Origin: Bryobacteraceae bacterium
Lineage (GTDB): Bacteria; Acidobacteriota; Terriglobia; Bryobacterales; Bryobacteraceae
Reading direction: 5' to 3'
Length of the DNA stretch: 45,180 nucleotides
Assembly (NCBI GenBank): GCA_049511275.1
Contig: JBEKYE010000001.1
Coordinates: forward strand, 1 to 45,180
Position 1 is the stretch's first letter. Every line of letters starts with the position of its first letter. The position numbers were made by a program, and so were the translations under genes. Positions 23,752-34,285 of this stretch are shown one piece after another. Below the pieces are notes generated by a model that worked only from the letters and a program-made list of their open reading frames with translations, had not been told where the DNA came from and made no database searches.

Positions 23752-25014
23752 CTACGGATACAGCCCGCGGATCCGGCAAGCTTCCGCCACGCGCCCGACG
23801 CCCAGCATGTTGGCCGCCAGCCGCATGTTGACCTTCTTGTCTTTGTGGATCTTCAGCACGTCGTTGAACGAACGCACCATGATCTTCTCCAGCTTCGCGT
23901 TCACGTCGTTCTCGTCCCAGAACAGGTGGTTCTCGTCCTGCACCCATTCGAAGTACGATACCGTCACGCCGCCCGCGTTGCACAGAATGTCCGGAATCAG
24001 GAACACGCCCTTCGTGTCGAGGATGCGATCGGCTTCCGGAGTGACCGGACCGTTGGCCGCTTCCGAAATGATCTTCGCGCGAACCGCTTCGGCATTCTCG
24101 TCCGTGATCGCGTTCTCGAGCGCCGCCGGAATCAGTACGTCGACCTGCAACGCCAGCAATTCATCCGGCCGGATGCTGTCCGCGCCTGGGAACCCGGCCA
24201 CCGAGCCGGTGACTTCCTTGAACTTCACCACCGCCGGAATATCCAGCCCCCGCGGGCTGTAGATGCAGCCCTTGGTATCGCTGCACGCCAGCACCTTCGC
24301 GCCCGCCTCGTGGAACAGTACGGCCGCGATCGATCCGGCATTGCCGAAGCCCTGCACCGCCACCGTCGCTCCCTTCATCGGGATCTTCAGGTGCTCCATG
24401 GCGCCGCGCGTCGTATAGTAGCAGCCGCGCGCCGTGGCTTCGTTGCGTCCCAGCGACCCGCCCAGGCTGATCGGCTTGCCCGTCACCACGCCCGTCACCG
24501 GATACCCCTTCATCATGCTGTAGGTGTCCATGATCCAGGCCATGATCTGCGGCGTGGTATAGACGTCCGGTGCCGGAATGTCTTTCTCCGGTCCGATGAT
24601 CGGCAGAATCGCGCTGGCATAGCGCCGCGTCATCCGCTCCAGCTCGCCCATCGACATGGTTTTCGGGTTGCAGGTTATGCCGCCCTTGCCGCCGCCGTAG
24701 GGAATGTTCACCACCGCGCACTTCCACGTCATCCACGTCGCCAGCGCTTTCACTTCGTCCAGCGTGACGTTCGGATGGTAACGGATGCCTCCCTTCGCCG
24801 GACCGCGCTGCGTGCTGTGTTGCACGCGGTAGCCCTCAAAGCGGACGATTTTGCCGCCGTCCATGCGGACCGGAACACTCACAATGAGCTCGCGCTCCGG
24901 ATACTTGATCATGGCGCGCACGTTCTCTTCGAGTTCCAGCGCGTTTGCCGCCAGATCGAAATTCTCCAGTGCTACTGCGTATGCGTTCTTCTCTTCTTTT
25001 GCGGTTGCTGGCAT
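23752..25014 (-). CDS. Glutamate dehydrogenase (Glu/Leu/Phe/Val dehydrogenase family, ~420-aa type)
   Basis: 'RGPAKGGIRYHPNVTLDEVKALATWMTWKCAVVNIPYGGGKGG' and the 'VAVQGFGNAGS' dinucleotide fold. I chose the start at Met 'MPATAKEEKNAY' (AGAGGGG upstream). The track start at 25107 is a TTG inside relic sequence. Confidence 0.85.
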   Translation of the reverse strand: MPATAKEEKNAYAVALENFDLAANALELEENVRAMIKYPERELIVSVPVRMDGGKIVRFEGYRVQHSTQRGPAKGGIRYHPNVTLDEVKALATWMTWKCAVVNIPYGGGKGGITCNPKTMSMGELERMTRRYASAILPIIGPEKDIPAPDVYTTPQIMAWIMDTYSMMKGYPVTGVVTGKPISLGGSLGRNEATARGCYYTTRGAMEHLKIPMKGATVAVQGFGNAGSIAAVLFHEAGAKVLACSDTKGCIYSPRGLDIPAVVKFKEVTGSVAGFPGADSIRPDELLALQVDVLIPAALENAITDENAEAVRAKIISEAANGPVTPEADRILDTKGVFLIPDILCNAGGVTVSYFEWVQDENHLFWDENDVNAKLEKIMVRSFNDVLKIHKDKKVNMRLAANMLGVGRVAEACRIRGLYP

Positions 25015-25043
25015 GGCGAACCCCTCTGGTTCTTCCGGTTTTC

Positions 25044-25072
25044 GGGGAGCCCTGGGTATTCCAGGGCCCCCC
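25044..25072 (-). promoter_or_regulatory. 12-bp GC-rich hairpin (one mismatch) between the two gdh genes
   Basis: GGGGAGCCCTGG-gtatt-CCAGGGCCCCCC, with no U-tract. It may be a gdhA terminator-like structure or a leader structure for the downstream gdh. Confidence 0.35.
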
Positions 25073-25093
25073 GCAACTTTCTCCTGCTCTTGC

Positions 25094-25139
25094 CCTAACG
25101 GATACAACCCGCGGGCCTGGTAAGCGTCCGCCGCGCGCC
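25094..25139 (-). pseudogene. Relic of the 3' end of a GDH gene paralogous to 23752-25014
   Basis: 25098-25140 aligns to 23754-23796 at 36/43 positions by hand. It would translate as GRAADAYQARGLYP, against the real C-terminus GRVAEACRIRGLYP. Similarity stops at the stop codon. Confidence 0.5.
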
Positions 25140-26501
25140 CTAGACGAGACCCTGCGCCATCATCGCTTCCGCCACCTTGGAGAAGCCGGCGATGTTTGCG
25201 CCCATCACATAGTCGCCCGCAGCCCCGTACTCCTTGGAGGTTTCATAAGCCGCGTCGTGGATCGCAGTCATGATGTGCTTCAGCTTGTCATCGACTTCTT
25301 CCCGGGTCCAGGAAATACGCATCGAGTTCTGCTCCATCTCGAGGCCCGAGGTGGCCACGCCGCCGGCGTTTGCCGCCTTGCCGGGGCCGTATAGGGTTTT
25401 CGCCGCCTGGAAAACTTCCACGCCTTCGGGTGTCGTCGGCATATTGGCGCCTTCGCCCACCACGTAGCAGCCGTTCTTGACCAGCATCCTGGCGTCCTCG
25501 CCGCTGATTTCGTTCTGCGTCGCGCTCGGGAAGGCGCACTGCGCCGGTATGCTCCAGGGCTTCATGCCCGGGAAGAACTCGGCCTTCGGGAACTTCTTCC
25601 CATACTCTTTGATGCGCCCGCGCCGGTTGTTCTTCAGGTCCATCACCCAGGCCAGCTTCTCCGCGTTGATTCCAGCCTCATCGTAAATCGTGCCTTCGGA
25701 ATCGGAGAGAGTGACGCACTTGGCGCCGAGCTGGTTGAGTTTTTCCACCGTGTACTGCGCCACATTGCCCGCGCCGGAAACCAGGCACGTCTTGTTCTTA
25801 AAATTCTCGCCGCGCGTGTGCAGCATTCGTTCCGAGAAATACACGCAGCCATAACCCGTGGCTTCGGGCCGTATGAGCGATCCGCCCCAGGTAAGACCCT
25901 TGCCTGTCAGCACGCCCGTGAATTCGTTCCGGATGCGCTTGTACTGGCCGAACAGGAACCCGATCTCGCGTCCGCCCACGCCGATATCGCCCGCCGGGAC
26001 GTCCGTGTCCGGGCCGATGTGCCGGACGAGTTCCGTCATGAAACTCTGGCAGAAGCGCATGACCTCGGCGTCCGACTTCCCTTTGGGATCGAAGTCCGAT
26101 CCTCCCTTGCCGCCTCCCATGGGGAGCGTTGTGAGCGAGTTCTTGAGGACCTGCTCGAAACCCAGGAACTTCAGGATGCCGAGGTTAACAGTCGGATGGA
26201 ATCTCAGCCCGCCCTTGTACGGACCGATGGCGCTCGAAAACTCAATGCGGTAGCCGCGGTTGACCTGAACCCGCCCCTTGTCATCCTGCCAGGGGACGCG
26301 GAACATGATGACACGCTCCGGTTCGACCAGACGGTCGAGTATTCGCGATTCGACGTATTCCGGATGCCGGTCCAACGCCGGTGTTATCGACCGAAAGACT
26401 TCGGTAACGGCTTGCAGAAACTCCGGTTCGCCTGCATTCCGCCTCTTGACGGTCTCGAAGACTTGGTCTACGTATGTTGTTGCGTATGCTACTGTGCTCA
26501 C
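25140..26501 (-). CDS. gdhA: NADP-type hexameric glutamate dehydrogenase (E. coli GdhA-like, ~450 aa)
   Basis: 'EPEFLQAVTEVFRSITP', 'YKGGLRFHPTVNLGILKFLGFEQVLKNSLTTLPMGGGKGG' and 'VSGAGNVAQY'. The GTG start has AAGGAG 7 nt upstream. Confidence 0.9.
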   Translation of the reverse strand: MSTVAYATTYVDQVFETVKRRNAGEPEFLQAVTEVFRSITPALDRHPEYVESRILDRLVEPERVIMFRVPWQDDKGRVQVNRGYRIEFSSAIGPYKGGLRFHPTVNLGILKFLGFEQVLKNSLTTLPMGGGKGGSDFDPKGKSDAEVMRFCQSFMTELVRHIGPDTDVPAGDIGVGGREIGFLFGQYKRIRNEFTGVLTGKGLTWGGSLIRPEATGYGCVYFSERMLHTRGENFKNKTCLVSGAGNVAQYTVEKLNQLGAKCVTLSDSEGTIYDEAGINAEKLAWVMDLKNNRRGRIKEYGKKFPKAEFFPGMKPWSIPAQCAFPSATQNEISGEDARMLVKNGCYVVGEGANMPTTPEGVEVFQAAKTLYGPGKAANAGGVATSGLEMEQNSMRISWTREEVDDKLKHIMTAIHDAAYETSKEYGAAGDYVMGANIAGFSKVAEAMMAQGLV

Positions 26502-27076: not shown

Positions 27077-28099
27077 ATGTCAAACGGATTTCGTCCCTGG
27101 ATTTCCCTGCTCGCTTTCGCGCTTCTCGCCGCGCCCCTCGCCCCCGCGGCCGACGATCTGCGCATTTCCGGTCCCTTCACGCATGACAACCTCTCGGTCT
27201 TCCTGATCCACGGCGCCCGCCCGGACGCCGCCAAAGGAAAACTCCTGACGCTGCACGAAGCCATGGATGCCAAGAAGGTAGTGGTCTACGAGACCGGCAC
27301 CGTGAATGCGCTCTCCATCGAGAACCAGTCGTCCCAGGACGTGTACATCCAGTCCGGAGACATCGTCAAAGGAGGCCGCCAGGATCGTGTCCTGACCACC
27401 GACCTCATCCTGCCCGCGCACTCCGGCAAGCTCGCCATCTCCTCCTTCTGCGTGGAGCAGGGCCGCTGGACCAGGCGCGGTAACGAGCCCGCCGATCAGT
27501 TCGGCACATCCGACAAAGTGTTGGCCTTCAGGCAACTCAAGATGGCCGTGCACGAACCAAACGCCCAGATGCAAGTCTGGAACGAGGTGGCGAATGCGCG
27601 CCAGTCGCTGGCGGAAACGGTGACGGTCACTGGCGCCGTCGCGGCTACGCCACCCGCCATGCCCCGTTCCACCAGCATGCAAATGGCGCTCGAAAGCAAA
27701 CCCGTGGTCGACGCCACCGCCGCCTACATCAAAGATCTCGCCAAAATCGTCGACAGCCAGAACGACGTCGTGGGCTTCGTCTACGCCATCAACGGCGCCG
27801 TCAACAGCGGCGATGTGTATGCCTCGAACGACCTGTTCCGGCGCATGTGGCCGATGCTTCTCGAATCGAGCGCCACCGAAGCCCTCGCCGAGCGCGCCAA
27901 AGCCGCCAAGACCGCAATACCCGACTTGGCCACCGTGAAGAGCTTCCTCGCCGACGCCGACGGCGGCCGGGAATCCTCGAAGCAGACCAATGGCCGTCTG
28001 TCGATCGCTAGGAAGGAATCGCCAAGAACGTTGCTCTTCGAAACCCGCGACCCGAATCAGGCCGGCGGCTGGATCCACAAGAGCTACGTCGTCAAATAA
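27077..28099 (+). CDS. Secreted conserved protein of unknown function (resembles the family I recall being annotated 'ARPP-1 family domain')
   Basis: 340 aa. The signal peptide is 'WISLLAFALLAAPLAPAAD'. The core is 'LSVFLIHG...LTLHEAMDAKKVVVYETG...IENQSSQDVYIQSGDIVKGGRQDRVL...PAHSGKLAISSFCVEQGRW'. Confidence 0.5.
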   Translation: MSNGFRPWISLLAFALLAAPLAPAADDLRISGPFTHDNLSVFLIHGARPDAAKGKLLTLHEAMDAKKVVVYETGTVNALSIENQSSQDVYIQSGDIVKGGRQDRVLTTDLILPAHSGKLAISSFCVEQGRWTRRGNEPADQFGTSDKVLAFRQLKMAVHEPNAQMQVWNEVANARQSLAETVTVTGAVAATPPAMPRSTSMQMALESKPVVDATAAYIKDLAKIVDSQNDVVGFVYAINGAVNSGDVYASNDLFRRMWPMLLESSATEALAERAKAAKTAIPDLATVKSFLADADGGRESSKQTNGRLSIARKESPRTLLFETRDPNQAGGWIHKSYVVK

Positions 28100-28155: not shown

Positions 28156-28734
28156 CTACGTCCCCTTCGTCCGCGCCCGGTCCATGTACTTTCGCGTCCC
28201 CAGATCCAGCCGGATCCAGTCGCCGTTCTTCACAAACTGCGGCACCATCACCTCGACGCCGTTCGTCAGTTTCGCCGGCTTGAAGGCGCTGTCGGCCTGC
28301 ATGTGCATCGGCGGCGCGGTGTCGGCGATCTTGACTTCCAGCACATCGGGAAAAACCACGCTCACCGGACGGCTCTCCAGGAATTCGACCCCGATCTTCG
28401 TCCCGGCTTCCAGAAACACCGCCCGCTCGCCCACCACCGCTAGCGGAATCTCGGTCTGCTCGTACGATTCCGGATCCATGAAGCAGCACTGGTCGGCATC
28501 GCCATACAGAAATTCCATCGGCCGCTTCTGCAGAGCCACTTCCTCGAACCTCAGCTCCGAACGGAAACTGTGCTCCCAAAAAGTGCCTGTATTCAGATTC
28601 TGCAGGCGTGTGTGCGCCACGCCTCCCATTCTTCCCTGCCCGGGATGGTACTCCACGGCGGTCACTCGATAAATCTGCCCTTCGTAACGAATGGCCATCC
28701 CGGGACGCAGTTGCGATGCCGTAATCATTGCCAC
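28156..28734 (-). CDS. efp: Elongation factor P family protein with extended, Lys-less modification loop (EfpL/YeiP-like)
   Basis: 192 aa with full three-domain EF-P similarity ('ASQLRPGMAIRYEGQIYRV...', 'KPAKLTNGVEVMVPQFV'). The loop reads HPGQGRMGGVA instead of KPGKGQA. ATG at 28728 with GGAGGT upstream is the likely true start. Confidence 0.85.
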   Translation of the reverse strand: MAMITASQLRPGMAIRYEGQIYRVTAVEYHPGQGRMGGVAHTRLQNLNTGTFWEHSFRSELRFEEVALQKRPMEFLYGDADQCCFMDPESYEQTEIPLAVVGERAVFLEAGTKIGVEFLESRPVSVVFPDVLEVKIADTAPPMHMQADSAFKPAKLTNGVEVMVPQFVKNGDWIRLDLGTRKYMDRARTKGT

Positions 28735-28751
28735 CTCCGGCTATACCGCCG

Positions 28752-28937
28752 TCACGAAGAGGGTTCGTGATCGTGCGCGGTTGGCGAAGCGGTCGCGTGC
28801 GGCGGCTTCGCCGATGGTCCCCGGAAATTCTGGCGGGGGTCTGGCCGCAGTTTCATCGCCTGCGGCGGCCTGTAATGGGTTTTGGTCCGTTCCACCGTCC
28901 AGGTGCGGATGACCTGAGGATGGCGTCCCTTGTCCAT
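28752..28937 (-). CDS. Candidate 61-aa upstream ORF between the sugar-phosphate operon and efp
   Basis: AGGAGG lies 5 nt before the ATG. Third-codon positions are mostly G/C in this frame. The product is basic and Pro-rich with RPPQ and KPPH. The stop is 18-24 nt before the efp start. I recognised no homologue. Confidence 0.3.
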   Translation of the reverse strand: MDKGRHPQVIRTWTVERTKTHYRPPQAMKLRPDPRQNFRGPSAKPPHATASPTAHDHEPSS

Positions 28938-28984
28938 ACATTCCTCCTGTCGTCCATTAGTTTACACCGCGTGCGGTTGCGCCC

Positions 28985-29542
28985 TTACTTTTCGACGTCC
29001 ATGAAGGAATACACGATCATGTGGCAAACGATCATGTGGGCATCTTCGATGCGCCCCACGTGGGGCACCGGCACCTGGATGTTGAGCTGCGCCTTGGGGC
29101 CGAGCTTGCCGCCATCGCGGCCGGTGAGCGAGAGCGTCCGGCAGCCGAGTTGATTGGCGTAGTCCATGGCGCGGAGGACGTTGGGCGAGTTGCCGGAGCT
29201 GCTGATGCCCATGAAGAGATCGCCGGGCTGGGCGAAGTTCTTGAGCTGCTCGACGAAGACTGCGTCGTAGCTGACATCGTTGGCATAGGCGGTAAGCGTG
29301 GCTAACTGGTCGGTGAGAGCCATGATGCGGAAGCGCGATTGGCGGTTGAAGCTCGCGCCTTTGACGATGTCGCAGGCGAAGTGAGAGGCGGTCGAAGCGC
29401 TGCCGCCGTTGCCGCACACGAAGATGCACCGGCCGGCGGCGCGGGCGTCCCGGAACCATTCGATGGCCTGGTTCACTTTGGCCAGATCGATGGCCTCGAT
29501 CGCCTGCAGGAGGTCCGTTTTGTAACCTTGCGGATAAGTCAT
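28985..29542 (-). CDS. gmhA: SIS-domain sugar-phosphate isomerase, GmhA (sedoheptulose-7-P isomerase)-like
   Basis: 185 aa. 'CGNGGSASTASHFACD', 'GISSSGNSPNVLRA', 'LTGRDGGKLG' and 'IQVP...RIEDAHMIVCHMI' align with the E. coli GmhA motifs as I recall them. Confidence 0.75.
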   Translation of the reverse strand: MTYPQGYKTDLLQAIEAIDLAKVNQAIEWFRDARAAGRCIFVCGNGGSASTASHFACDIVKGASFNRQSRFRIMALTDQLATLTAYANDVSYDAVFVEQLKNFAQPGDLFMGISSSGNSPNVLRAMDYANQLGCRTLSLTGRDGGKLGPKAQLNIQVPVPHVGRIEDAHMIVCHMIVYSFMDVEK

Positions 29543-30396
29543 GAAGGTTTCCGTTGTCCGGCCAGCACCAGCGCTCCGTAGAGCACGCTGTCATCGCCCA
29601 GGGCCGCCGGCACCACCTCGATGCGCGCAGCCGACCAGCCGGTGATCTGCCGCCGCAATTCCACGCGCAACGGCGCGAAGAGGGGATCGCCCGCTTTGCC
29701 GATGCCGCCGCCGATTACGATCCGCGCCGGGTTCAATAACATGATACACGCCTTGAGACCGAGCGCGAGATCCACCACATAGCGGCGGACAAATTCGGGA
29801 TCGGCGAGCAGATCCTTGGCGGTGCGGCCATGGTCGCGCTCCAGCCACAGGCCGCTGCACATGCGCTCGAAGCAGCCTTGGGCGCCGCACAGGCAGGTCG
29901 GGCCATCGGGACGGATGGTGAGATGGCCGATCTCGCCGGCGTAGGAATCGGCGCCCCGCCAGACATTGCCGGCGCTGTAGATGCCGCCGCCGATGCCGGT
30001 GGAGAGGGTCATGTAGAAGAGCGGATCGGCGCCTTGGCCGGCGCCGTGCGTAGCTTCGCCGATAGCGCCTACGTTGGCGTCGTTGTCCATGATTACCGGA
30101 ATGCCAAGCTCCTTTTCCAGGTGCGCCGTGAACGGGAAATCGCGCCAGCCGCCCACGTGCGTCGAGAGCGCTACACGCTGGGCGGCGAAATCGACGGGAC
30201 CGCCGAAGCCCACGCCGCAGTTGTCGAAAGTGAGGTCGGCTCGCCAGGCGCGGGTCATGGCGGCGAGCTGGGAGAGCATCCAGTCGCGGCCGCCCTGCTT
30301 GTCGGTCGAGCGGGATTCGCGCCGCATGAGGCGGCCGTCCTGGAAAGCGGCGATGGAGAACTTCGTGCCGCCGATATCGATGGCCAGGGTGGTCAT
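29539..30396 (-). CDS. ROK-family sugar kinase
   Basis: I chose the start at 'MTTLAIDIGGTKFS' because it makes an ATGA overlap with the upstream gene. The ROK zinc motif 'CLCGAQGCFE' and 'GEIGH' are present. Confidence 0.85.
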   Translation of the reverse strand: MTTLAIDIGGTKFSIAAFQDGRLMRRESRSTDKQGGRDWMLSQLAAMTRAWRADLTFDNCGVGFGGPVDFAAQRVALSTHVGGWRDFPFTAHLEKELGIPVIMDNDANVGAIGEATHGAGQGADPLFYMTLSTGIGGGIYSAGNVWRGADSYAGEIGHLTIRPDGPTCLCGAQGCFERMCSGLWLERDHGRTAKDLLADPEFVRRYVVDLALGLKACIMLLNPARIVIGGGIGKAGDPLFAPLRVELRRQITGWSAARIEVVPAALGDDSVLYGALVLAGQRKPS

Positions 30397-31376
30397 GGCA
30401 GGCTTCCGGCGGCTTGGATCTCGGCGGGTGAAGCCGTGCCCGTGCCCTTCTTCATGATGGTGATGCCGGCTACCCGGTTGCCGAACCTGCATGCCGCCGC
30501 CGGGTCACGGGTTACGCTGAGGGCCACCGCCGTGCCGGCGGCGAAGCTGTCGCCGGCTCCGCAGATGTCTACCGGGTTGTCTGCCGGATTGGTTTTGACC
30601 CAGGTTTCACCCTGACTGTCGAGGAGCAGGGCGCCGTGGCTGCCGTGGGTCACGATCATCAGCGGAGCCTTCGCCCGGCGGCGCAACTCCGCATAGTCCA
30701 GGCGGCCCAACAAGGATCGGCAGGCCGTCTCCGCTTCCCGCCGGTTGGGCTTGAGGATCAAGTTGCGAAACTGCTCGATGCGGGTGCGGGAATCGGCCAG
30801 CATCACTTTCTCGGGATACTGGAGAGCGAGATCGGCCAGCAGGTTCCGCAGCGCCGGCGTGACTACGCCGCCCTGGCTGGTCTCGGCCTGATCGGATACC
30901 AGGATCACATCGAAGCCATCGATGGTCTGCCGCAGGCGATCGAGGATGAGCCGCTCGACCGCGGCCGGGACGGGGTGAACGTTGATGAAATCGATGCGCG
31001 GCTGATCTTCGATGCCGGTGGACTGATTGATCAGCTTGGTATAAGTAAAGGTCTGCATGTGATCGCTGCGAACACTCAGGCCGGAGTCGATGCCGCGGCG
31101 GCTGAGGGCACGGGAGAGTTCGTCGCCATGACCGTCATGACCGATGGCGCCCAGGACCGCTACCCGGCCGACGCCGAGCGAGGCGAGATTGTTGGCCACG
31201 GTGCCGCCGGCGCCGGGCGTAACTTCGACGGAGACCACGCCGGTCCGCGGGATGCCGGTCTCGCGCGACGGCTCGGCGGCCGAGGGGTCGTAGGTGCACC
31301 AGCGGTCCAGGCAGATATCGCCGACCACCAGGGCGGAGATTCGCGGCAGCGCGCCGAGGATCTCTGCGGTGGTCAT
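30393..31376 (-). CDS. PfkB-family kinase resembling the heptose-7-phosphate kinase domain of HldE/RfaE (HldA-like); no adenylyltransferase domain
   Basis: 'ALVVGDICLDRW...PGAGGTVANNLASLG' matches the HldE domain-I N-terminus as I recall it. 'DICGAGDSFAAG' is the PfkB signature. The start at 31376 makes an ATGA overlap with the upstream stop. Confidence 0.7.
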   Translation of the reverse strand: MTTAEILGALPRISALVVGDICLDRWCTYDPSAAEPSRETGIPRTGVVSVEVTPGAGGTVANNLASLGVGRVAVLGAIGHDGHGDELSRALSRRGIDSGLSVRSDHMQTFTYTKLINQSTGIEDQPRIDFINVHPVPAAVERLILDRLRQTIDGFDVILVSDQAETSQGGVVTPALRNLLADLALQYPEKVMLADSRTRIEQFRNLILKPNRREAETACRSLLGRLDYAELRRRAKAPLMIVTHGSHGALLLDSQGETWVKTNPADNPVDICGAGDSFAAGTAVALSVTRDPAAACRFGNRVAGITIMKKGTGTASPAEIQAAGSLP

Positions 31377-32356
31377 GCTCCCTCCTGGATCGCGCGCTCC
31401 AGAATCGCCCGGCGGAGAGCCGGGAACGTGGCGCGGTGATCGCCGCAGAAGTAGAAGCTGGAGCCGCCGTCGGCCACGGTACGCACCAGCATAGTTTTGT
31501 GCGGCCGGAAATAGTAGCCGGGATTGGTTTTGGGAAGCTCTTCCTGGATGTTGTCGCCGATCGGGAGGAGATCGAAGACGGCGGTCGCAACATCGCGGAT
31601 GGCGCGGCCCTCCTGGCGGGCCACGTTGCGGCTCATGGCGAGCGCTTTGAGGTAGACTTCGGGCGCCATGACGGCGGAGCCGAAGCTGAGCATAACGCCG
31701 CCTTCCAGCCGCTCCACGGTGGCGGCGAAGATCAGGAAGTCGCGATAGCTGGCGGCGCCCAGTGCGGCGCCGTCGCAGTTGGGATGTTCGTGCAGAATGT
31801 CGTAGCCGACGCCGACGTGAACGGTGACCGGGACCGAGCAGCGCCAGGCCGCCGCCAGGACGCTGAGATCGCGATGCGGATAATCGCTCCTCTCGATGCG
31901 CCGGCCGACATTCTCGCCGAGGCCGAGGGACAGGGCGGCGGCCTCGGAGATCCAGTCGTTGAGCTCGCCGGTTTCCCGCCACAGGCCGAATTCTCCGGTG
32001 CGGATGTAGCGGGCCACGCTCTCGGTGGTGGCCCCGATGCGGGCAAGCTCGTAATCGTGGATGGCGCCGGCGCCGTTGAGGGCGATATGGTCGATGAAGC
32101 CGCGCTCCACCAGGTCGATGATCTGGCGATTGACGCCGGCGCGGAGCACGTGCGCGCCCATCATGAGGATCCGGGCCGCGCCGCGCCGGCGCGCGGCGAC
32201 CACTCGGGCGGCCACCTCGGCGAGTCGCGGGTGGGCATAGAGGTCCGGCGCTTCCTCTAGGGCCAGCCAATGATCCACGGCGAGATCGTGGACGCGCTCG
32301 GCCAGCGGTTTGACCACCAGGCGCGAACGGTCGAAGACTGGATATTTACTTTCCAT
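31373..32356 (-). CDS. Deoxyhypusine-synthase-fold (DHS-like) protein, divergent; function unknown
   Basis: 327 aa starting at Met 'MESKYPVF'. 'ILMMGAHVLRAGVNRQIIDLVERGFIDHIALNGAGAIHDYELA' aligns by eye to DHS '[43 protein letters not shown]'. Coding status is secure. The fold assignment is unverified. Confidence 0.5.
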   Translation of the reverse strand: MESKYPVFDRSRLVVKPLAERVHDLAVDHWLALEEAPDLYAHPRLAEVAARVVAARRRGAARILMMGAHVLRAGVNRQIIDLVERGFIDHIALNGAGAIHDYELARIGATTESVARYIRTGEFGLWRETGELNDWISEAAALSLGLGENVGRRIERSDYPHRDLSVLAAAWRCSVPVTVHVGVGYDILHEHPNCDGAALGAASYRDFLIFAATVERLEGGVMLSFGSAVMAPEVYLKALAMSRNVARQEGRAIRDVATAVFDLLPIGDNIQEELPKTNPGYYFRPHKTMLVRTVADGGSSFYFCGDHRATFPALRRAILERAIQEGA

Positions 32357-33191
32357 TGGGAAACAGGGTAGCCAGCAATTCTTCCCGGCAGAGGAAGTTG
32401 GGAATGATGAAATCGGCTCCGACACTGCTGAGGCGCCGGCGCTTCCAGGCGTCGACGGCCTGGCAGGCGGGCTCGTCGGTGGCGACTCCCACGGCCACTC
32501 CGCCCACTTCCTTGATATTTTCAATCTCCACGTAGCCATCCCCGAAGCAGAGCAACTGGTCGCCGCGGCATTCGGCGCTGGCGATGACACGCTCGATCAG
32601 GATCTTCTTGGAAAAACTCTGGTAATCGTCCAGGGCGCCGTAGACGCCGCCATCGAAGTAACGGTCCACGTCGAGGAGGCGCGCTTCCTGGCGCATGAAC
32701 TCCTGATCCGTGCCGCTGGCGAGGTACAGCTTCAAGCCGCGCGCCCGCAGTGCTTCGACGAGAGCGCGGGCGCCGGGGACGAGGTACTTTTCGGGAGAGG
32801 CGCCTTGCGCCAGGTCGTCGAGGCGGTGGCGGATTTTCCGGTGGAGGCGCCCCAGGTAGATGCGCTTGTACTCAAGCGGATCGAGGGGCTTGCCGCCGTA
32901 GCCGCGGACCTGATCGGCAAACTCGATCATCTGGTAGATGGTCTGCTTCCCGGTGAGGCGGCCCACGCGCTCCTCCACCATCGCGCGCAGTTGTTCCACC
33001 GGCTCGCCGCTATTCAGGTCGGCCAGAGTTTCCACCATCATGGGGATCATCACCTCCATCCAGCCGGATCGGATGAGGGAGAGGGTGCCGTCAAAATCAA
33101 AGAGGCAGACCCGGGCGTTTCGGGCGGAGACGCCCGGGTGGAGCTGTTCGACCATAAGGGTGTTAGCACTATTGTAAGAGCGAACCAGCAT
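32346..33191 (-). CDS. HAD-superfamily hydrolase (subfamily IA-like phosphatase)
   Basis: 'CLFDFDGTLSLIRSG', 'LYLASGTDQ' and 'CFGDGYVEIENIK' are HAD motifs I-IV. The start is uncertain (33191 or 33155). The rest of track ORF 32346..34040 is an artefactual extension. Confidence 0.7.
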   Translation of the reverse strand: MLVRSYNSANTLMVEQLHPGVSARNARVCLFDFDGTLSLIRSGWMEVMIPMMVETLADLNSGEPVEQLRAMVEERVGRLTGKQTIYQMIEFADQVRGYGGKPLDPLEYKRIYLGRLHRKIRHRLDDLAQGASPEKYLVPGARALVEALRARGLKLYLASGTDQEFMRQEARLLDVDRYFDGGVYGALDDYQSFSKKILIERVIASAECRGDQLLCFGDGYVEIENIKEVGGVAVGVATDEPACQAVDAWKRRRLSSVGADFIIPNFLCREELLATLFPNGK

Positions 33192-33278
33192 CGCCGGGAT
33201 GTTTGAGCCTGCGGCAGGCTGGTCCGCCACGGCCGCTTCCGTCCCGGATAACCGGAAGCCGCCTGACCGCGCCGGGGC

Positions 33279-34265
33279 TTGCGCGCGACCCCGCTTGGGG
33301 AGTATCGTCATCTCGTGATTGTCACGCGACGTACCATTCTCACCGCCATATCCGCGGCCGCCGCCGTTCAGGGTCAGCGCAACCGCCCGCCGAACTGGAC
33401 ACCCAGACTCGGCGTTCTGATGCAGTACTCGGATTCCAACCTGGAGTTCGTCAAAGCCGAAGGCTTTACCAGCGCGCAGCTCCGGCTCAATCCCGATCAA
33501 CTGGACGATGCCGCCATCGCCGCCATCAAGGACAAAATCGCCCGCAGCGGTATCTACATTTCCTCGCTGGCCGTGGATGGCAACCACATCGATCCCGACC
33601 CGGCCAGGCGCGATCGCCAGAACACCTACACCCTCAAATGCCTGGATCTGTGCGGCAAGCTTGACATCCCCAACATCGGTGGCCAGAGCGGCACCATTCC
33701 GAATATGGGTCTGCAACAGCAGGTGGACGAGATAGTCAAGGTTTACACCGAAAAGTACTTCGTTTCCTGCGAGAAGAACAAAGTGCGCATCCTGTGGGAG
33801 CCCTACGCCGGCGGGCCGAACATCGCCACCGGGCCGGTGGGCTGGGAAGCGCTCTTCAAAGCCTTCCAAGACAGCCCGCACGTGGGTCTGCAGTTCGACC
33901 CGTCGCACCTGGTGTGGCAGTTCATGGACCCGGTGGCGGCAGCGCGCGAATTCGCCGACAAGATTTACGACGTCCACCTCAAAGACACGGAGATTCTCTG
34001 GCCTCTGGTGAAACGCGGCGGCATCCAGCCCGTGAATCACGCCCGCTGGTGGCGTTTCCGCTTACCCGGATACGGCTCGGTGGATTGGAAAGGCTTTTTC
34101 ACAGTGCTCTCCGAAGTCGGATACACGGGGGCCATGAACATCGAGAACGAAGACGAGTTCTACTACCCGGCGTACAGCGGCGCGAACTTCACGGAACAGT
34201 ACAAACGCGGCTTCCGCCTGGCACACGAGTTCCTCAAGACCCTGGTGCCTCCGGTAAAGGCATAA
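33279..34265 (+). CDS. Xylose-isomerase-like TIM-barrel protein (sugar phosphate isomerase/epimerase family) with Tat-like leader
   Basis: 328 aa. It has the 'TRRTILTAISAAAAV' leader and the typical 'FDPSHLVWQ...HLKD...G.VDW' pattern of this family. Confidence 0.7.
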   Translation: MRATPLGEYRHLVIVTRRTILTAISAAAAVQGQRNRPPNWTPRLGVLMQYSDSNLEFVKAEGFTSAQLRLNPDQLDDAAIAAIKDKIARSGIYISSLAVDGNHIDPDPARRDRQNTYTLKCLDLCGKLDIPNIGGQSGTIPNMGLQQQVDEIVKVYTEKYFVSCEKNKVRILWEPYAGGPNIATGPVGWEALFKAFQDSPHVGLQFDPSHLVWQFMDPVAAAREFADKIYDVHLKDTEILWPLVKRGGIQPVNHARWWRFRLPGYGSVDWKGFFTVLSEVGYTGAMNIENEDEFYYPAYSGANFTEQYKRGFRLAHEFLKTLVPPVKA

Positions 34266-34285
34266 ACCGCCGGAGCCTGGCGCTC

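What the first reader, a model, noticed from the sequence alone, without database searches (positions are those of the whole stretch)
28156..33191. Translationally coupled HAD / DHS-like / heptose-kinase-like / ROK / GmhA-like operon lying directly upstream of an atypical efp
Seen in the sequence: five minus-strand genes are joined by an 11-nt overlap (32346-32356) and three ATGA start/stop overlaps (31373-31376, 30393-30396, 29539-29542). That indicates one tightly co-translated unit. efp follows 250 bp downstream on the same strand, and I found no recognisable terminator or sigma70 promoter in the gap.

From established knowledge: GmhA (SIS), the HldE/HldA kinase (PfkB) and a HAD phosphatase (the GmhB role) are the first three steps of nucleotide-heptose synthesis. 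This locus has no nucleotidyltransferase or glycosyltransferase. It has a ROK kinase and a deoxyhypusine-synthase-fold protein instead. DHS is the enzyme that modifies eIF5A, the archaeal/eukaryotic orthologue of EF-P. The known bacterial EF-P modification enzymes (EpmA/B, EarP) are often encoded near efp.

Inference: this could be an undescribed EF-P/EfpL modification pathway, possibly using a sugar-phosphate-derived donor. Alternatively it is an uncharacterised heptose- or ketose-phosphate pathway that only happens to neighbour efp.
Basis: partly seen in the sequence, partly recalled or inferred. Interest (0 to 1): 0.8.

Follow-up and report, generated by a model that had tools for sequence, protein, structure and literature searches.

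The report
Heptose-type sugar operon, efp neighbour accidental
The five overlapping genes are a widespread but uncharacterised sugar-phosphate (heptose-type) operon built around a protein family of unknown function, and its position next to the translation factor gene efp is a recent rearrangement in this one lineage, not a sign of a new EF-P modification pathway.

Summary
Five minus-strand genes (HAD, GSU2086-family DHS/LOR-fold protein, HldA-like PfkB kinase, ROK kinase, GmhA-like SIS isomerase) are joined by one 11-nt overlap and three ATGA overlaps, and efp follows on the same strand.

The EF-P interpretation fails its own refutation test. None of 80 Bryobacterales genome loci carrying the DHS-like gene has efp within 8 kb. 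In a relative with 92.8% nucleotide identity, the same 4.2-kb operon block lies in the opposite orientation next to a different gene. Three orthologous efp genes sit in three unrelated contexts. Synteny breaks exactly at 28968/28969.

The "empty" 250-nt gap belongs to efp.

The DHS-like protein matches NCBIfam "GSU2086 family". In Geobacter, GSU2086 has the locus tag between hldE and gmhA. Elsewhere the family is fused to HAD, SIS, PfkB, ARMT1-like phosphatase and HldC-like adenylyltransferase domains. One locus places it beside a heptosyltransferase.

Best reading: an uncharacterised variant of the nucleotide-heptose pathway. The biochemical step performed by the GSU2086-family protein remains unknown.

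The parts
32346..33155 (-). HAD-superfamily phosphatase with a cap domain (DFDGT, SGT, K and GDGxxE motifs). First gene of the operon.
   Evidence: Pfam Hydrolase 5.4e-14. No GmhB/HAD-IIIA model hit. Homology with L081 begins at 33166, and the L083 call is 269 aa. Present next to the GSU2086-family gene in 79 of 87 loci.
31373..32356 (-). GSU2086-family protein with a DHS/LOR-SDH-like double Rossmann fold; function unknown. This is the core gene of the module.
   Evidence: NCBIfam NF052581 4.6e-113, 377.7 bits against cutoff 250. AF2 pLDDT 91.8. Foldseek finds ArgZ/AgrE C-terminal domain, 3c2q and DHS at TM about 0.5. Profile against PDB finds AgrE at 2.4e-7. Fusions with HAD, SIS, PfkB, HldC-like NT and ARMT1.
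30393..31376 (-). PfkB-family sugar-phosphate kinase with the GAGD motif. Nearest relatives are the HldE kinase domain and HldA (heptose-7-phosphate 1-kinase), but it scores below the equivalog cutoff.
   Evidence: PfkB 1.3e-31. TIGR02198 rfaE_dom_I 1.2e-40, 139.6 bits against cutoff 345. Best PDB sequence hit is 4e84 HldA at 1.2e-11. Adjacent in 82 of 87 loci.
29539..30396 (-). ROK-family sugar kinase with DIGGT and CxCGxxGC zinc motifs, glucokinase-like. Accessory member of the module.
   Evidence: ROK 2.6e-54. Best PDB hit is 3vov glucokinase at 9e-42. Present in 52 of 87 loci.
28985..29542 (-). SIS-domain sugar-phosphate isomerase, GmhA-like. Last gene of the operon and an accessory member.
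   Evidence: SIS_2 6.2e-22. TIGR00441 gmhA 4.7e-37, 127.4 bits against cutoff 209. Best PDB hits are phosphoheptose isomerases, 5i01 at 7.7e-28. Present in 54 of 87 loci.
28969..33166 (-). The 4.2-kb operon cassette as a rearrangement unit. It is collinear with relatives, but its orientation relative to the AP_endonuc_2 neighbour is opposite. The synteny breakpoint with the efp unit lies at 28968/28969.
   Evidence: blastn against L081/L082/L083 gives 92.8% identity over 4198 nt. The efp block 28156-28968 matches L091 and L093. Coding-strand GC skew of the operon genes is opposite to both flanks.
28959..28964 (-). Conserved -10-like box TAAACT (TA[A/G]ACT-like in relatives), about 20 nt upstream of the small ORF's Shine-Dalgarno sequence. 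Candidate promoter of the small-ORF/efp unit.
   Evidence: A similar box (TAAACT, TAGACT, TAGGAT, TAAGCT, TAAAAT or TACACT) lies at the same distance from the ATG in the 23 instances whose upstream sequence is available. It is also present upstream of efp in L092, which lacks the small ORF. Coordinates.
28752..28937 (-). Conserved 61-codon proline-rich small ORF (MDKGRHPQVIRTWTVERTKTHYRPPQ...KPPH...) with an AGGAGG Shine-Dalgarno sequence.
   Evidence: Found in 24 instances. 18 unique N-terminal coding sequences have variable columns 3/3/22 by codon position. efp lies immediately downstream in 13 of 18 informative metagenome loci. Annotated only as hypothetical protein. No Pfam or NCBIfam match.
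28156..28728 (-). efp, a divergent EF-P with an extended loop EYHPGQGRMGG. It is an independent unit, not part of the operon.
   Evidence: Three EF-P domains. NF001810 161.8 bits against cutoff 161; EfpL model 115 against 216. Homologue loops show K/R/Q variation. Orthologue contexts are unrelated.
33279..34265 (+). AP_endonuc_2 (xylose isomerase-like TIM barrel) gene, used as a marker of the rearrangement. In the relative L081/L082 its orthologue lies downstream of SIS on the same strand.
   Evidence: Pfam 6e-25. blastn L081 8854-9843 matches window 33277-34267 at 90.8%.

Best explanation
The five genes are one translationally coupled operon. It encodes a self-contained sugar-phosphate pathway of the nucleotide-heptose type and has nothing to do with EF-P.

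Proposed route (inferred, not shown):
1. A ketose phosphate, most likely sedoheptulose 7-phosphate, is the starting substrate. The ROK kinase may supply a substrate from a free sugar.
2. The GmhA-like SIS enzyme isomerises it to an aldose phosphate.
3. The HldA-like PfkB kinase phosphorylates it at the anomeric position.
4. The cap-type HAD phosphatase removes the distal phosphate, giving a sugar 1-phosphate.
5. The GSU2086-family protein performs an extra, still unknown step on one of these intermediates or on the nucleotide sugar made from them. Its fold is related to the NAD-dependent enzymes deoxyhypusine synthase and AgrE/LOR ornithine cyclodeaminase. My best guess is a cofactor-dependent epimerisation or isomerisation by transient oxidation.

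A nucleotidyltransferase would have to be encoded elsewhere in this genome.

efp and the small ORF in front of it form a separate unit with their own conserved 5' region. They came to lie behind the operon through a lineage-specific rearrangement of the 4.2-kb cassette.
For: Shown:
- Gene structure and overlaps are as described. The same overlaps occur in a relative.
- The nearest characterised relatives of SIS and PfkB are GmhA and HldE-I/HldA.
- The DHS-like protein is a member of NF052581. GSU2086 has the locus tag between hldE (GSU2085) and gmhA (GSU2087) in G. sulfurreducens, and all three have similar Tn-seq defects.
- HAD-X-PfkB is conserved in Acidobacteriota (79-82 of 87 loci), Anaerolineae, Armatimonadota and other lineages.
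- Family members are fused to HAD, SIS, PfkB, ARMT1-like phosphatase and NT domains. The NT domains score 165-169 bits on rfaE_dom_II against a cutoff of 181.5.
- Locus L090 has GmhA-like, HldA, HldC, GmhB, an HldC-X fusion and a family-9 glycosyltransferase (Glyco_transf_9, the family that includes LPS heptosyltransferases) in a row.
- efp is absent from all 80 genome loci and from the close relative.
- The synteny break is at 28968/28969, and the efp upstream unit is conserved in loci that have no operon.

Inferred: substrate identity, order of steps, and the chemistry of the GSU2086-family protein. The last is based on fold and on remote homology to NAD-dependent enzymes.
Against: - SIS and PfkB score well below the GmhA and HldE equivalog cutoffs (127 against 209; 140 against 345).
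- The HAD is not GmhB-type.
- No nucleotidyltransferase or glycosyltransferase is near the operon in the window or in any Bryobacterales locus.
- A ROK kinase has no role in the canonical pathway.
- Some neighbourhoods look catabolic: an ABC sugar transporter in L084, glycoside hydrolases in L081 and L085, and a TonB-type outer-membrane protein and sugar isomerase-like genes in the window.
- No biochemical data exist for any GSU2086-family member.
- Read-through transcription from the operon into the small ORF and efp cannot be excluded in this genome, because no terminator was found.
Confidence: 0.7

Rival explanations
1. The operon is a catabolic or salvage route for an environmental sugar (a heptose, sedoheptulose or a rare hexose), not a biosynthetic one. 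The ROK kinase phosphorylates the imported sugar, SIS isomerises it, and PfkB, HAD and the GSU2086-family protein reposition or convert it into a central metabolite.
For: - A ROK kinase is present in 52 of 87 loci.
- In Anaerolineae the genes directly follow an ABC sugar transporter.
- Glycoside hydrolase genes lie nearby in L081 and L085.
- The window neighbourhood holds a TonB-type outer-membrane protein, AP_endonuc_2 genes, DUF5054 and a GFO/IDH/MocA oxidoreductase.
- No nucleotidyltransferase or glycosyltransferase is near the operon in Bryobacterales.
Against: - Flanking genes are not conserved among the 80 Bryobacterales loci.
- Close homologues (56% identity) are fused to HldC-like nucleotidyltransferases, and others sit in glycan-assembly clusters with GT9, GT4 and a flippase.
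- The Geobacter gene lies between hldE and gmhA and shares their envelope-type phenotype.
- A kinase plus phosphatase pair is the hallmark of anomeric activation, not of degradation.
Confidence: 0.2
2. The operon makes a sugar-phosphate-derived donor, and the DHS-fold protein transfers it to the loop of the neighbouring atypical EF-P, by analogy with deoxyhypusine synthase acting on eIF5A.
For: - Same-strand adjacency in this window, with no consensus terminator in between.
- The protein has a DHS-like fold.
- The EF-P loop is unusual, PGQGRMGG.
Against: - The adjacency is absent in 80 of 80 related genome loci and in a relative with 92.8% nucleotide identity.
- efp orthologues have unrelated neighbours.
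- The junction is a synteny breakpoint, and efp brings its own conserved promoter-like box and small ORF.
- The family occurs with heptose genes and fusions in many phyla, never with efp in the loci examined.
- The loop residue varies among K, R and Q.
- PF01916 does not match, and no lysine is among the family-invariant residues.
Confidence: 0.03
3. The GSU2086-family protein acts on a nicotinamide or adenine nucleotide cofactor rather than on a sugar. It might handle NAD/ADP-ribose-type or phosphopantetheine-type chemistry, and its link to heptose genes would be indirect.
For: - The fold class binds NAD in all solved relatives.
- There are fusions to ARMT1-like damage-control phosphatase and to the cytidylyltransferase-like family, which also contains NMNAT and PPAT.
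Against: - The fused NT domains score far better on the heptose-1-P adenylyltransferase model (165-169 bits) than on PPAT (26-30 bits).
- Partners SIS, PfkB and HAD are sugar-phosphate enzymes nearest to GmhA and HldA.
- L090 includes GmhB and a family-9 glycosyltransferase (heptosyltransferase family).
Confidence: 0.05

Closest known systems
ADP-L-glycero-beta-D-manno-heptose pathway (GmhA, HldE or HldA+HldC, GmhB, HldD) of Gram-negative LPS core synthesis
   Same: A SIS isomerase and a PfkB kinase whose nearest characterised relatives are GmhA and HldE-I/HldA. A kinase plus phosphatase logic. In other genomes, family members are fused to or adjacent to HldC-like adenylyltransferase, GmhB and a family-9 glycosyltransferase (heptosyltransferase family).
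   Different: Both enzymes score far below the equivalog cutoffs. The phosphatase is a cap-type HAD, not GmhB (HAD-IIIA). There is no nucleotidyltransferase, no SDR epimerase HldD and no transferase in this locus. The operon has an extra ROK kinase and an extra GSU2086-family protein that has no counterpart in the canonical pathway.
Geobacter sulfurreducens GSU2085-GSU2087 (hldE, GSU2086, gmhA) sugar biosynthesis cluster
   Same: The central protein belongs to the same NCBIfam family, NF052581, and is again linked to a GmhA-type and an HldE-type gene. Tn-seq shows all three Geobacter genes share a similar defect.
   Different: Geobacter has a bifunctional HldE with the adenylyltransferase domain, and the cited table lists no ROK or cap-type HAD there. 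The Desulfobacterota-type proteins form a shorter-loop subgroup. The Geobacter protein itself is uncharacterised.
Deoxyhypusine synthase and the LOR/SDH-type ornithine cyclodeaminase domain of ArgZ/AgrE
   Same: Same overall fold by AlphaFold2 plus Foldseek (E about 1e-7 to 1e-5, TM 0.45-0.55). Profile-level homology of the first Rossmann half to AgrE (2.4e-7), including a G-x-H...N-G-A...H-D-x-E motif. This suggests a bound nicotinamide cofactor.
   Different: Only 11-16% identity. The Pfam DS model does not match. There is no conserved linkage to EF-P or eIF5A. The partners are sugar-phosphate enzymes, not polyamine or arginine enzymes. No lysine is among the family-invariant residues.
EfpL (YeiP), the EF-P paralogue with an extended loop (PMC11611912)
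   Same: By hand alignment, the efp here also has two extra residues between the conserved loop proline and strand beta4, and a basic residue near the tip. The paper reports that EfpL-type factors occur in Acidobacteria.
   Different: It scores 115 bits against a cutoff of 216 on the EfpL model and just passes a generic EF-P model. The basic residue lies four residues, not three, after the proline and varies among K, R and Q. The residue at the E. coli K34-equivalent position is an invariant Q.

Membership tests
GSU2086 family (NCBIfam NF052581) | Full-length match above the curated cutoff | tested here: met
   377.7 bits against cutoff 250, residues 8-316 on profile positions 2-300 of 301.
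GSU2086 family (NCBIfam NF052581) | Genomic association with heptose-pathway genes, as in the name-giving Geobacter locus | tested here: met
   The window operon has GmhA-like and HldA-like genes. Geobacter has hldE-GSU2086-gmhA. L090 and the fusions agree.
Deoxyhypusine synthase (PF01916) | Sequence match to the DS model at or above the gathering score | tested here: not met
   No DS hit at E<=0.01. The best Pfam hit is ArgZ-like_C_2nd at 20.2 bits against cutoff 27. Some family members give DS hits at E about 1e-4, below cutoff.
Deoxyhypusine synthase (PF01916) | DHS-like double Rossmann fold | tested here: met
   AF2 pLDDT 91.8. Foldseek probability 1.0 to DHS entries 7cmc, 8put and 1dhs, TM 0.48-0.54. 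ArgZ/AgrE and LOR/SDH score slightly better.
Deoxyhypusine synthase (PF01916) | Catalytic lysine and spermidine-binding residues | tested here: inconclusive
   No lysine is among the 10 invariant columns of the 37-sequence family alignment; K237 is nearly invariant. No residue-level structural superposition was available.
Deoxyhypusine synthase (PF01916) | Functional or genomic link to its protein substrate (eIF5A/EF-P) | tested here: not met
   efp is absent from 80 of 80 loci and from the closest relative. efp orthologues lie elsewhere.
Canonical nucleotide-heptose pathway (GmhA / HldE / GmhB / HldD) | GmhA equivalog | tested here: not met
   TIGR00441 gives 127.4 bits against cutoff 209.45. 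GmhA is still the best-matching family, and the CGNGGS, HFA, ND and GISSSGNS motifs and the C-terminal His are kept. The catalytic Glu position reads Asp, and the Gln position reads Glu (the residue roles are recalled from the GmhA literature).
Canonical nucleotide-heptose pathway (GmhA / HldE / GmhB / HldD) | Heptose-7-phosphate kinase (HldE domain I / HldA) equivalog | tested here: not met
   TIGR02198 gives 139.6 bits against cutoff 345. It is the best family by 20 orders of magnitude over ribokinase. The best PDB hit is HldA 4e84.
Canonical nucleotide-heptose pathway (GmhA / HldE / GmhB / HldD) | GmhB-type (HAD-IIIA) bisphosphate phosphatase | tested here: not met
   The HAD here hits only generic and HAD-IB models weakly, with no GmhB hit. 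PDB hits are weak and to generic sugar phosphatases. L090 by contrast has a GmhB-like protein at 147 bits.
Canonical nucleotide-heptose pathway (GmhA / HldE / GmhB / HldD) | Heptose-1-phosphate nucleotidyltransferase and a heptosyltransferase in the locus | tested here: not met
   Neither is in the operon. No HldC-like match was found in the window or within 8 kb in any Bryobacterales locus.
Known EF-P modification systems (EpmA/EpmB/EpmC, EarP, YmfI) | A homologue of a known modifying enzyme near efp | tested here: not met
   Pfam annotation of the 36 window ORFs scanned shows none.
Known EF-P modification systems (EpmA/EpmB/EpmC, EarP, YmfI) | Conserved modifiable tip residue (Lys or Arg) | tested here: not met
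   Loop is EYHPGQG(K/R/Q)MGG among homologues. Actual modification state is not testable here.
EfpL (YeiP) subfamily, for the neighbouring efp | Match to the EfpL equivalog model | tested here: not met
   NF003392 gives 115.3 bits against cutoff 216; TIGR02178 gives 104 against 264.
EfpL (YeiP) subfamily, for the neighbouring efp | Two-residue loop extension with a Pro three residues before the tip Arg (PMC11611912) | tested here: inconclusive
   Hand alignment shows a +2 extension after the loop Pro. The basic residue is at Pro+4 and is variable.

The most novel reading that the evidence does not exclude
The GSU2086 family is a missing enzyme of a widespread alternative nucleotide-heptose (or related sugar) pathway. 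It would be a DHS/LOR-fold enzyme that uses a bound cofactor to epimerise, isomerise or otherwise remodel a heptose phosphate or NDP-heptose. It has about 460 clusters at 50% identity with E<=1e-30 and is found in Acidobacteriota, Chloroflexota, Armatimonadota, Desulfobacterota and other phyla. It might be a non-SDR substitute for HldD, or the maker of a new heptose isomer. It would work together with dedicated paralogues of GmhA, HldA and HldC, and with a non-GmhB phosphatase.
Probability: 0.3. Interest if true: 0.6.

Novelty: new variant of a known kind. Interest (0 to 1): 0.35.

Why it matters
For EF-P biology the result is negative. There is no evidence here for a new modification pathway, and the neighbourhood signal that prompted the idea is a rearrangement artefact.

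What remains of value is a "known unknown". This protein family is catalogued only under a locus tag. It is genetically tied to heptose-pathway enzymes by operons, by at least five kinds of domain fusion and by a shared Tn-seq phenotype, across several phyla, including Chloroflexota, which to my knowledge is largely monoderm and lacks LPS.

Heptose nucleotides are LPS core building blocks and innate-immune agonists. An unassigned conserved step or a variant heptose product would therefore interest people who work on cell envelopes and glycobiology.

The small proline-rich ORF that travels with this efp subtype is a separate lead that can be tested cheaply.

Tried and rejected
1. **First genome scan.** The narrower alignment A2 returned only Bryobacterales. 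Cross-phylum contexts therefore had to come from the look-up of encoding contigs. The Geobacter locus itself could not be fetched.

2. **Sequence search of the DHS-like protein against the PDB.** It gave nothing significant. Only the family profile and the fold search were informative.

3. **Literature.** No paper describes the function of GSU2086 or its family, or a DHS-like protein in heptose synthesis. No paper was found describing a proline-rich leader ORF for efp.

4. **Rfam.** No hits in the window. The gap RNA folds somewhat better than shuffles (z -2.5), but the region is coding, so I draw no conclusion.

5. **Inverted repeats at the cassette ends.** I looked for them to explain the inversion. 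Only short chance-level pairs appeared. The junction intergenic regions share no homology with the relative, so this is not a clean two-breakpoint inversion.

6. **Exact look-up of the window EF-P.** It found nothing, because I gave the GTG start.

7. **The small ORF as a pure efp leader peptide.** I consider this weakened because 5 of 18 informative instances stand alone with a convergent gene downstream.

8. **GC-skew reversal of the cassette**. It fits a recent inversion, but skew is not uniform across the window, so I treat it as weak support only.

Full report
**1. The observation**

The minus strand carries six ORFs:

| Gene | Coordinates |
|---|---|
| DHS-like protein | 31373-32356 |
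| PfkB kinase | 30393-31376 |
| ROK kinase | 29539-30396 |
| SIS isomerase | 28985-29542 |
| efp | 28156-28734 |

The junctions are as described: ATGGAAAGTAA (11-nt overlap) and three ATGA overlaps.

Profile searches confirm every domain call. They place SIS nearest GmhA (TIGR00441 4.7e-37) and PfkB nearest the HldE kinase domain (TIGR02198 1.2e-40). Both score well below the equivalog cutoffs. ROK is nearest glucokinases. The HAD is a generic cap-type phosphatase, not GmhB.

Two start codons should probably move. The HAD start is more likely 33155, because homology with a close relative begins at 33166 and the relative's gene call is 269 aa. The efp start is more likely ATG 28728, preceded by GGAGG.

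**2. What the DHS-like protein is**

Pfam's deoxyhypusine synthase model does not match. The protein is a clear member of NCBIfam NF052581, "GSU2086 family protein" (377.7 bits, cutoff 250).

An AlphaFold2 model built on 98 homologues is confident (pLDDT 91.8). Foldseek against the PDB finds, at 11-16% identity and TM 0.45-0.55, the following:
- the C-terminal ornithine cyclodeaminase domain of ArgZ/AgrE;
- the LOR/SDH protein 3c2q;
- deoxyhypusine synthases.

A family profile detects AgrE at 2.4e-7 over the first Rossmann half, with a shared G-x-H...N-G-A...H-D-x-E pattern.

The protein is not, however, a DHS family member.

**3. Is the efp adjacency meaningful?**

No. The evidence is as follows.

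- A scan of one genome per species returned 80 Bryobacterales loci with 8-kb flanks. tblastn with the window proteins finds HAD, the GSU2086-family gene and PfkB in nearly all of them, and ROK and SIS in about 60%. efp is found in none, even at E<=1e-3.
- The closest relative (protein 91% identical) carries the same five genes with the same overlaps, but the next gene is an AP_endonuc_2 gene.
- At DNA level, window 28969-33166 is 92.8% identical and collinear with that relative. The relative's downstream AP_endonuc_2 gene corresponds to window 33277-34267, which lies on the other side of the operon on the opposite strand. The 4.2-kb cassette therefore sits in opposite orientations next to the same neighbour in the two lineages.
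- Coding-strand GC skew of the five genes is opposite to that of both flanks. This fits a recent inversion, but it is weak evidence.
- The junction spacers are unrelated between the two lineages.
- efp together with 234 nt upstream (28156-28968) is homologous to efp loci in other Acidobacteria (87.6% and 69.5% nucleotide identity) that have no operon nearby.
- Three efp orthologues (89, 76 and 68% identity) have three unrelated neighbourhoods.

The two homology blocks abut at 28968/28969, 16 nt after the SIS stop codon.

**4. What is in the "gap"**

Comparison with other loci shows the region is not empty.

- A -10-like box is at 28959-28964 (TAAACT here; TAGACT, TAGGAT, TAAGCT, TAAAAT or TACACT elsewhere).
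- An AGGAGG Shine-Dalgarno sequence is at 28943-28948.
- A 61-codon ORF runs from 28752 to 28937: MDKGRHPQVIRTWTVERTKTHYRPPQAMKLRPDPRQNFRGPSAKPPHATASPTAHDHEPSS. It ends 23 nt before the efp ATG.

A degenerate pattern for part of its N-terminus found 21 metagenome contigs. Across 18 unique N-terminal coding sequences, 22 of 28 variable columns are third codon positions. The pattern did not constrain the RPPQ motif, yet RPPQ is invariant.

efp lies directly downstream in 13 of 18 informative contigs. In 5 the small gene stands alone. It has no Pfam or NCBIfam match and is annotated only as a hypothetical protein.

efp therefore arrives with its own conserved 5' unit. Read-through from the operon cannot be excluded in this genome, but it would be an accident of the rearrangement.

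**5. What the operon is**

The GSU2086 family is large. It has 2297 representatives at 50% clustering with E<=1e-3, of which 459 have E<=1e-30.

Its members are fused to several kinds of partner domain:
- HAD domains;
- GmhA-like SIS domains;
- HldA-like PfkB domains;
- ARMT1-like phosphatase domains;
- cytidylyltransferase-like domains, which score 165-169 bits on the heptose-1-phosphate adenylyltransferase model (cutoff 181.5).

One such fusion, X plus NT, is 56% identical to the window protein.

HAD-X-PfkB recurs in several lineages:
- Anaerolineae, preceded by SIS, ROK and an ABC sugar transporter;
- Armatimonadota;
- other lineages, once followed by an SDR epimerase, a GT4 and a PMT-like transferase.

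In Syntrophobacteria, SIS and X form an overlapping pair.

One locus reads GmhA-like, HldA, HldC, GmhB, an HldC-X fusion, a family-9 glycosyltransferase (Glyco_transf_9, the LPS heptosyltransferase family), a methyltransferase and a flippase.

In G. sulfurreducens, GSU2086 has the locus tag between hldE (GSU2085) and gmhA (GSU2087). All three show similar Tn-seq defects on electrodes, and the paper groups them with cell-surface sugar genes.

These data tie the family to nucleotide-heptose metabolism. They show that its partner enzymes are dedicated paralogues of the canonical ones.

**6. Proposed mechanism (inferred)**

1. A ketose phosphate, most likely sedoheptulose 7-phosphate, is isomerised by SIS.
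2. PfkB phosphorylates it at C1.
3. HAD trims it to the 1-phosphate.
4. The GSU2086-family protein adds a further conversion. Given its fold relatives, I guess this is a cofactor-dependent epimerisation or isomerisation.
5. The ROK kinase may feed a free sugar into the route.

In Bryobacterales no nucleotidyltransferase lies within 8 kb, so the end product there is uncertain.

A catabolic or salvage role is a serious rival, because some neighbourhoods hold transporters and glycoside hydrolases. Those neighbourhoods are not conserved, however.

**7. Comparison with known systems, and novelty**

The operon works like a variant of the GmhA/HldE/GmhB pathway but fails the equivalog tests for each enzyme. 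It lacks the transferase steps.

The central protein has the fold of DHS and LOR-type cyclodeaminases but is not a member of either family.

The family is already catalogued, under a locus-tag name, and was noted as a "hypothetical protein in a sugar biosynthesis operon". No function is published in the library searched.

I therefore rate it a new variant of a known kind. Interest is moderate. The EF-P idea that drove the original score is refuted, but an unassigned, widely conserved step linked to heptose metabolism remains.

**8. The efp itself**

It is a divergent EF-P. It just passes a generic EF-P model and fails the EfpL models.

By hand alignment, its loop has two extra residues after the conserved proline, as described for EfpL. 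A Gln sits at the position of E. coli Lys34. The basic residue two positions further along varies among K, R and Q in close homologues.

That variability argues against a residue-specific modification. No known EF-P modification gene was found among the window ORFs scanned.

Noticed in passing
window 28752-28937 (minus strand); also L091, L093, L094-L114: A conserved 57-63-codon proline-rich small ORF (MDKGRHPHVIRTWTVERTKxHYRPPQ..., with a second PP motif in the tail). It has its own -10-like box and an AGGAGG Shine-Dalgarno sequence, and ends about 20 nt before efp in 13 of 18 informative loci. It stands alone in 5. It might be an EF-P-sensing leader or an EF-P-associated small protein. It is annotated only as hypothetical.
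   Followed up: partly
window 28969-33166 versus L081/L082/L083: The whole five-gene operon behaves as a compact cassette. It is 92.8% identical to a relative but in the opposite orientation relative to the same AP_endonuc_2 neighbour. Junction spacers are unrelated, and an IS21-family element (IstB/rve genes) lies about 0.9 kb upstream of the HAD gene call in L081, with a small Zn_ribbon_8 gene in between. Coding-strand GC skew of the cassette is opposite to both flanks.
   Followed up: partly
window 28156-28728 (efp loop, residues about 27-40): The EF-P loop is EYHPGQGRMGG. Gln sits at the E. coli K34-equivalent position, there is a two-residue extension as in EfpL, and a K/R/Q-variable residue follows. 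This subtype is common in Bryobacteraceae and Terriglobia. Whether these genomes also have a second, canonical efp could not be checked.
   Followed up: partly
L081 4234-4398, L082, L083; L088 9910-10143: A small Zn_ribbon_8 (FmdB-type) gene lies just upstream of the operon in the close relatives and near the SIS-X pair in Syntrophobacteria. It is absent from the window.
   Followed up: no
P0124, P0148: Some GSU2086-family proteins are tandem duplications of the domain (about 680-690 aa). This hints that the functional unit may be a dimer of this fold, as in DHS.
   Followed up: no
window 23752-25107 and 25140-26501 (minus strand): Two adjacent paralogous glutamate/leucine/phenylalanine/valine-type dehydrogenase genes in tandem.
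   Followed up: no
window 27077-28099 (plus strand): An ARPP-1 domain protein (ARG and rhodanese-phosphatase-superfamily-associated protein) lies convergent with efp.
   Followed up: no
L093 5773-6732: In one efp-orthologue locus, a PfkB-family kinase gene lies divergently upstream of the small ORF and efp, in a PfkB-rhomboid-PIG-L operon. It is probably unrelated to the kinase of the operon; this was not compared.
   Followed up: no
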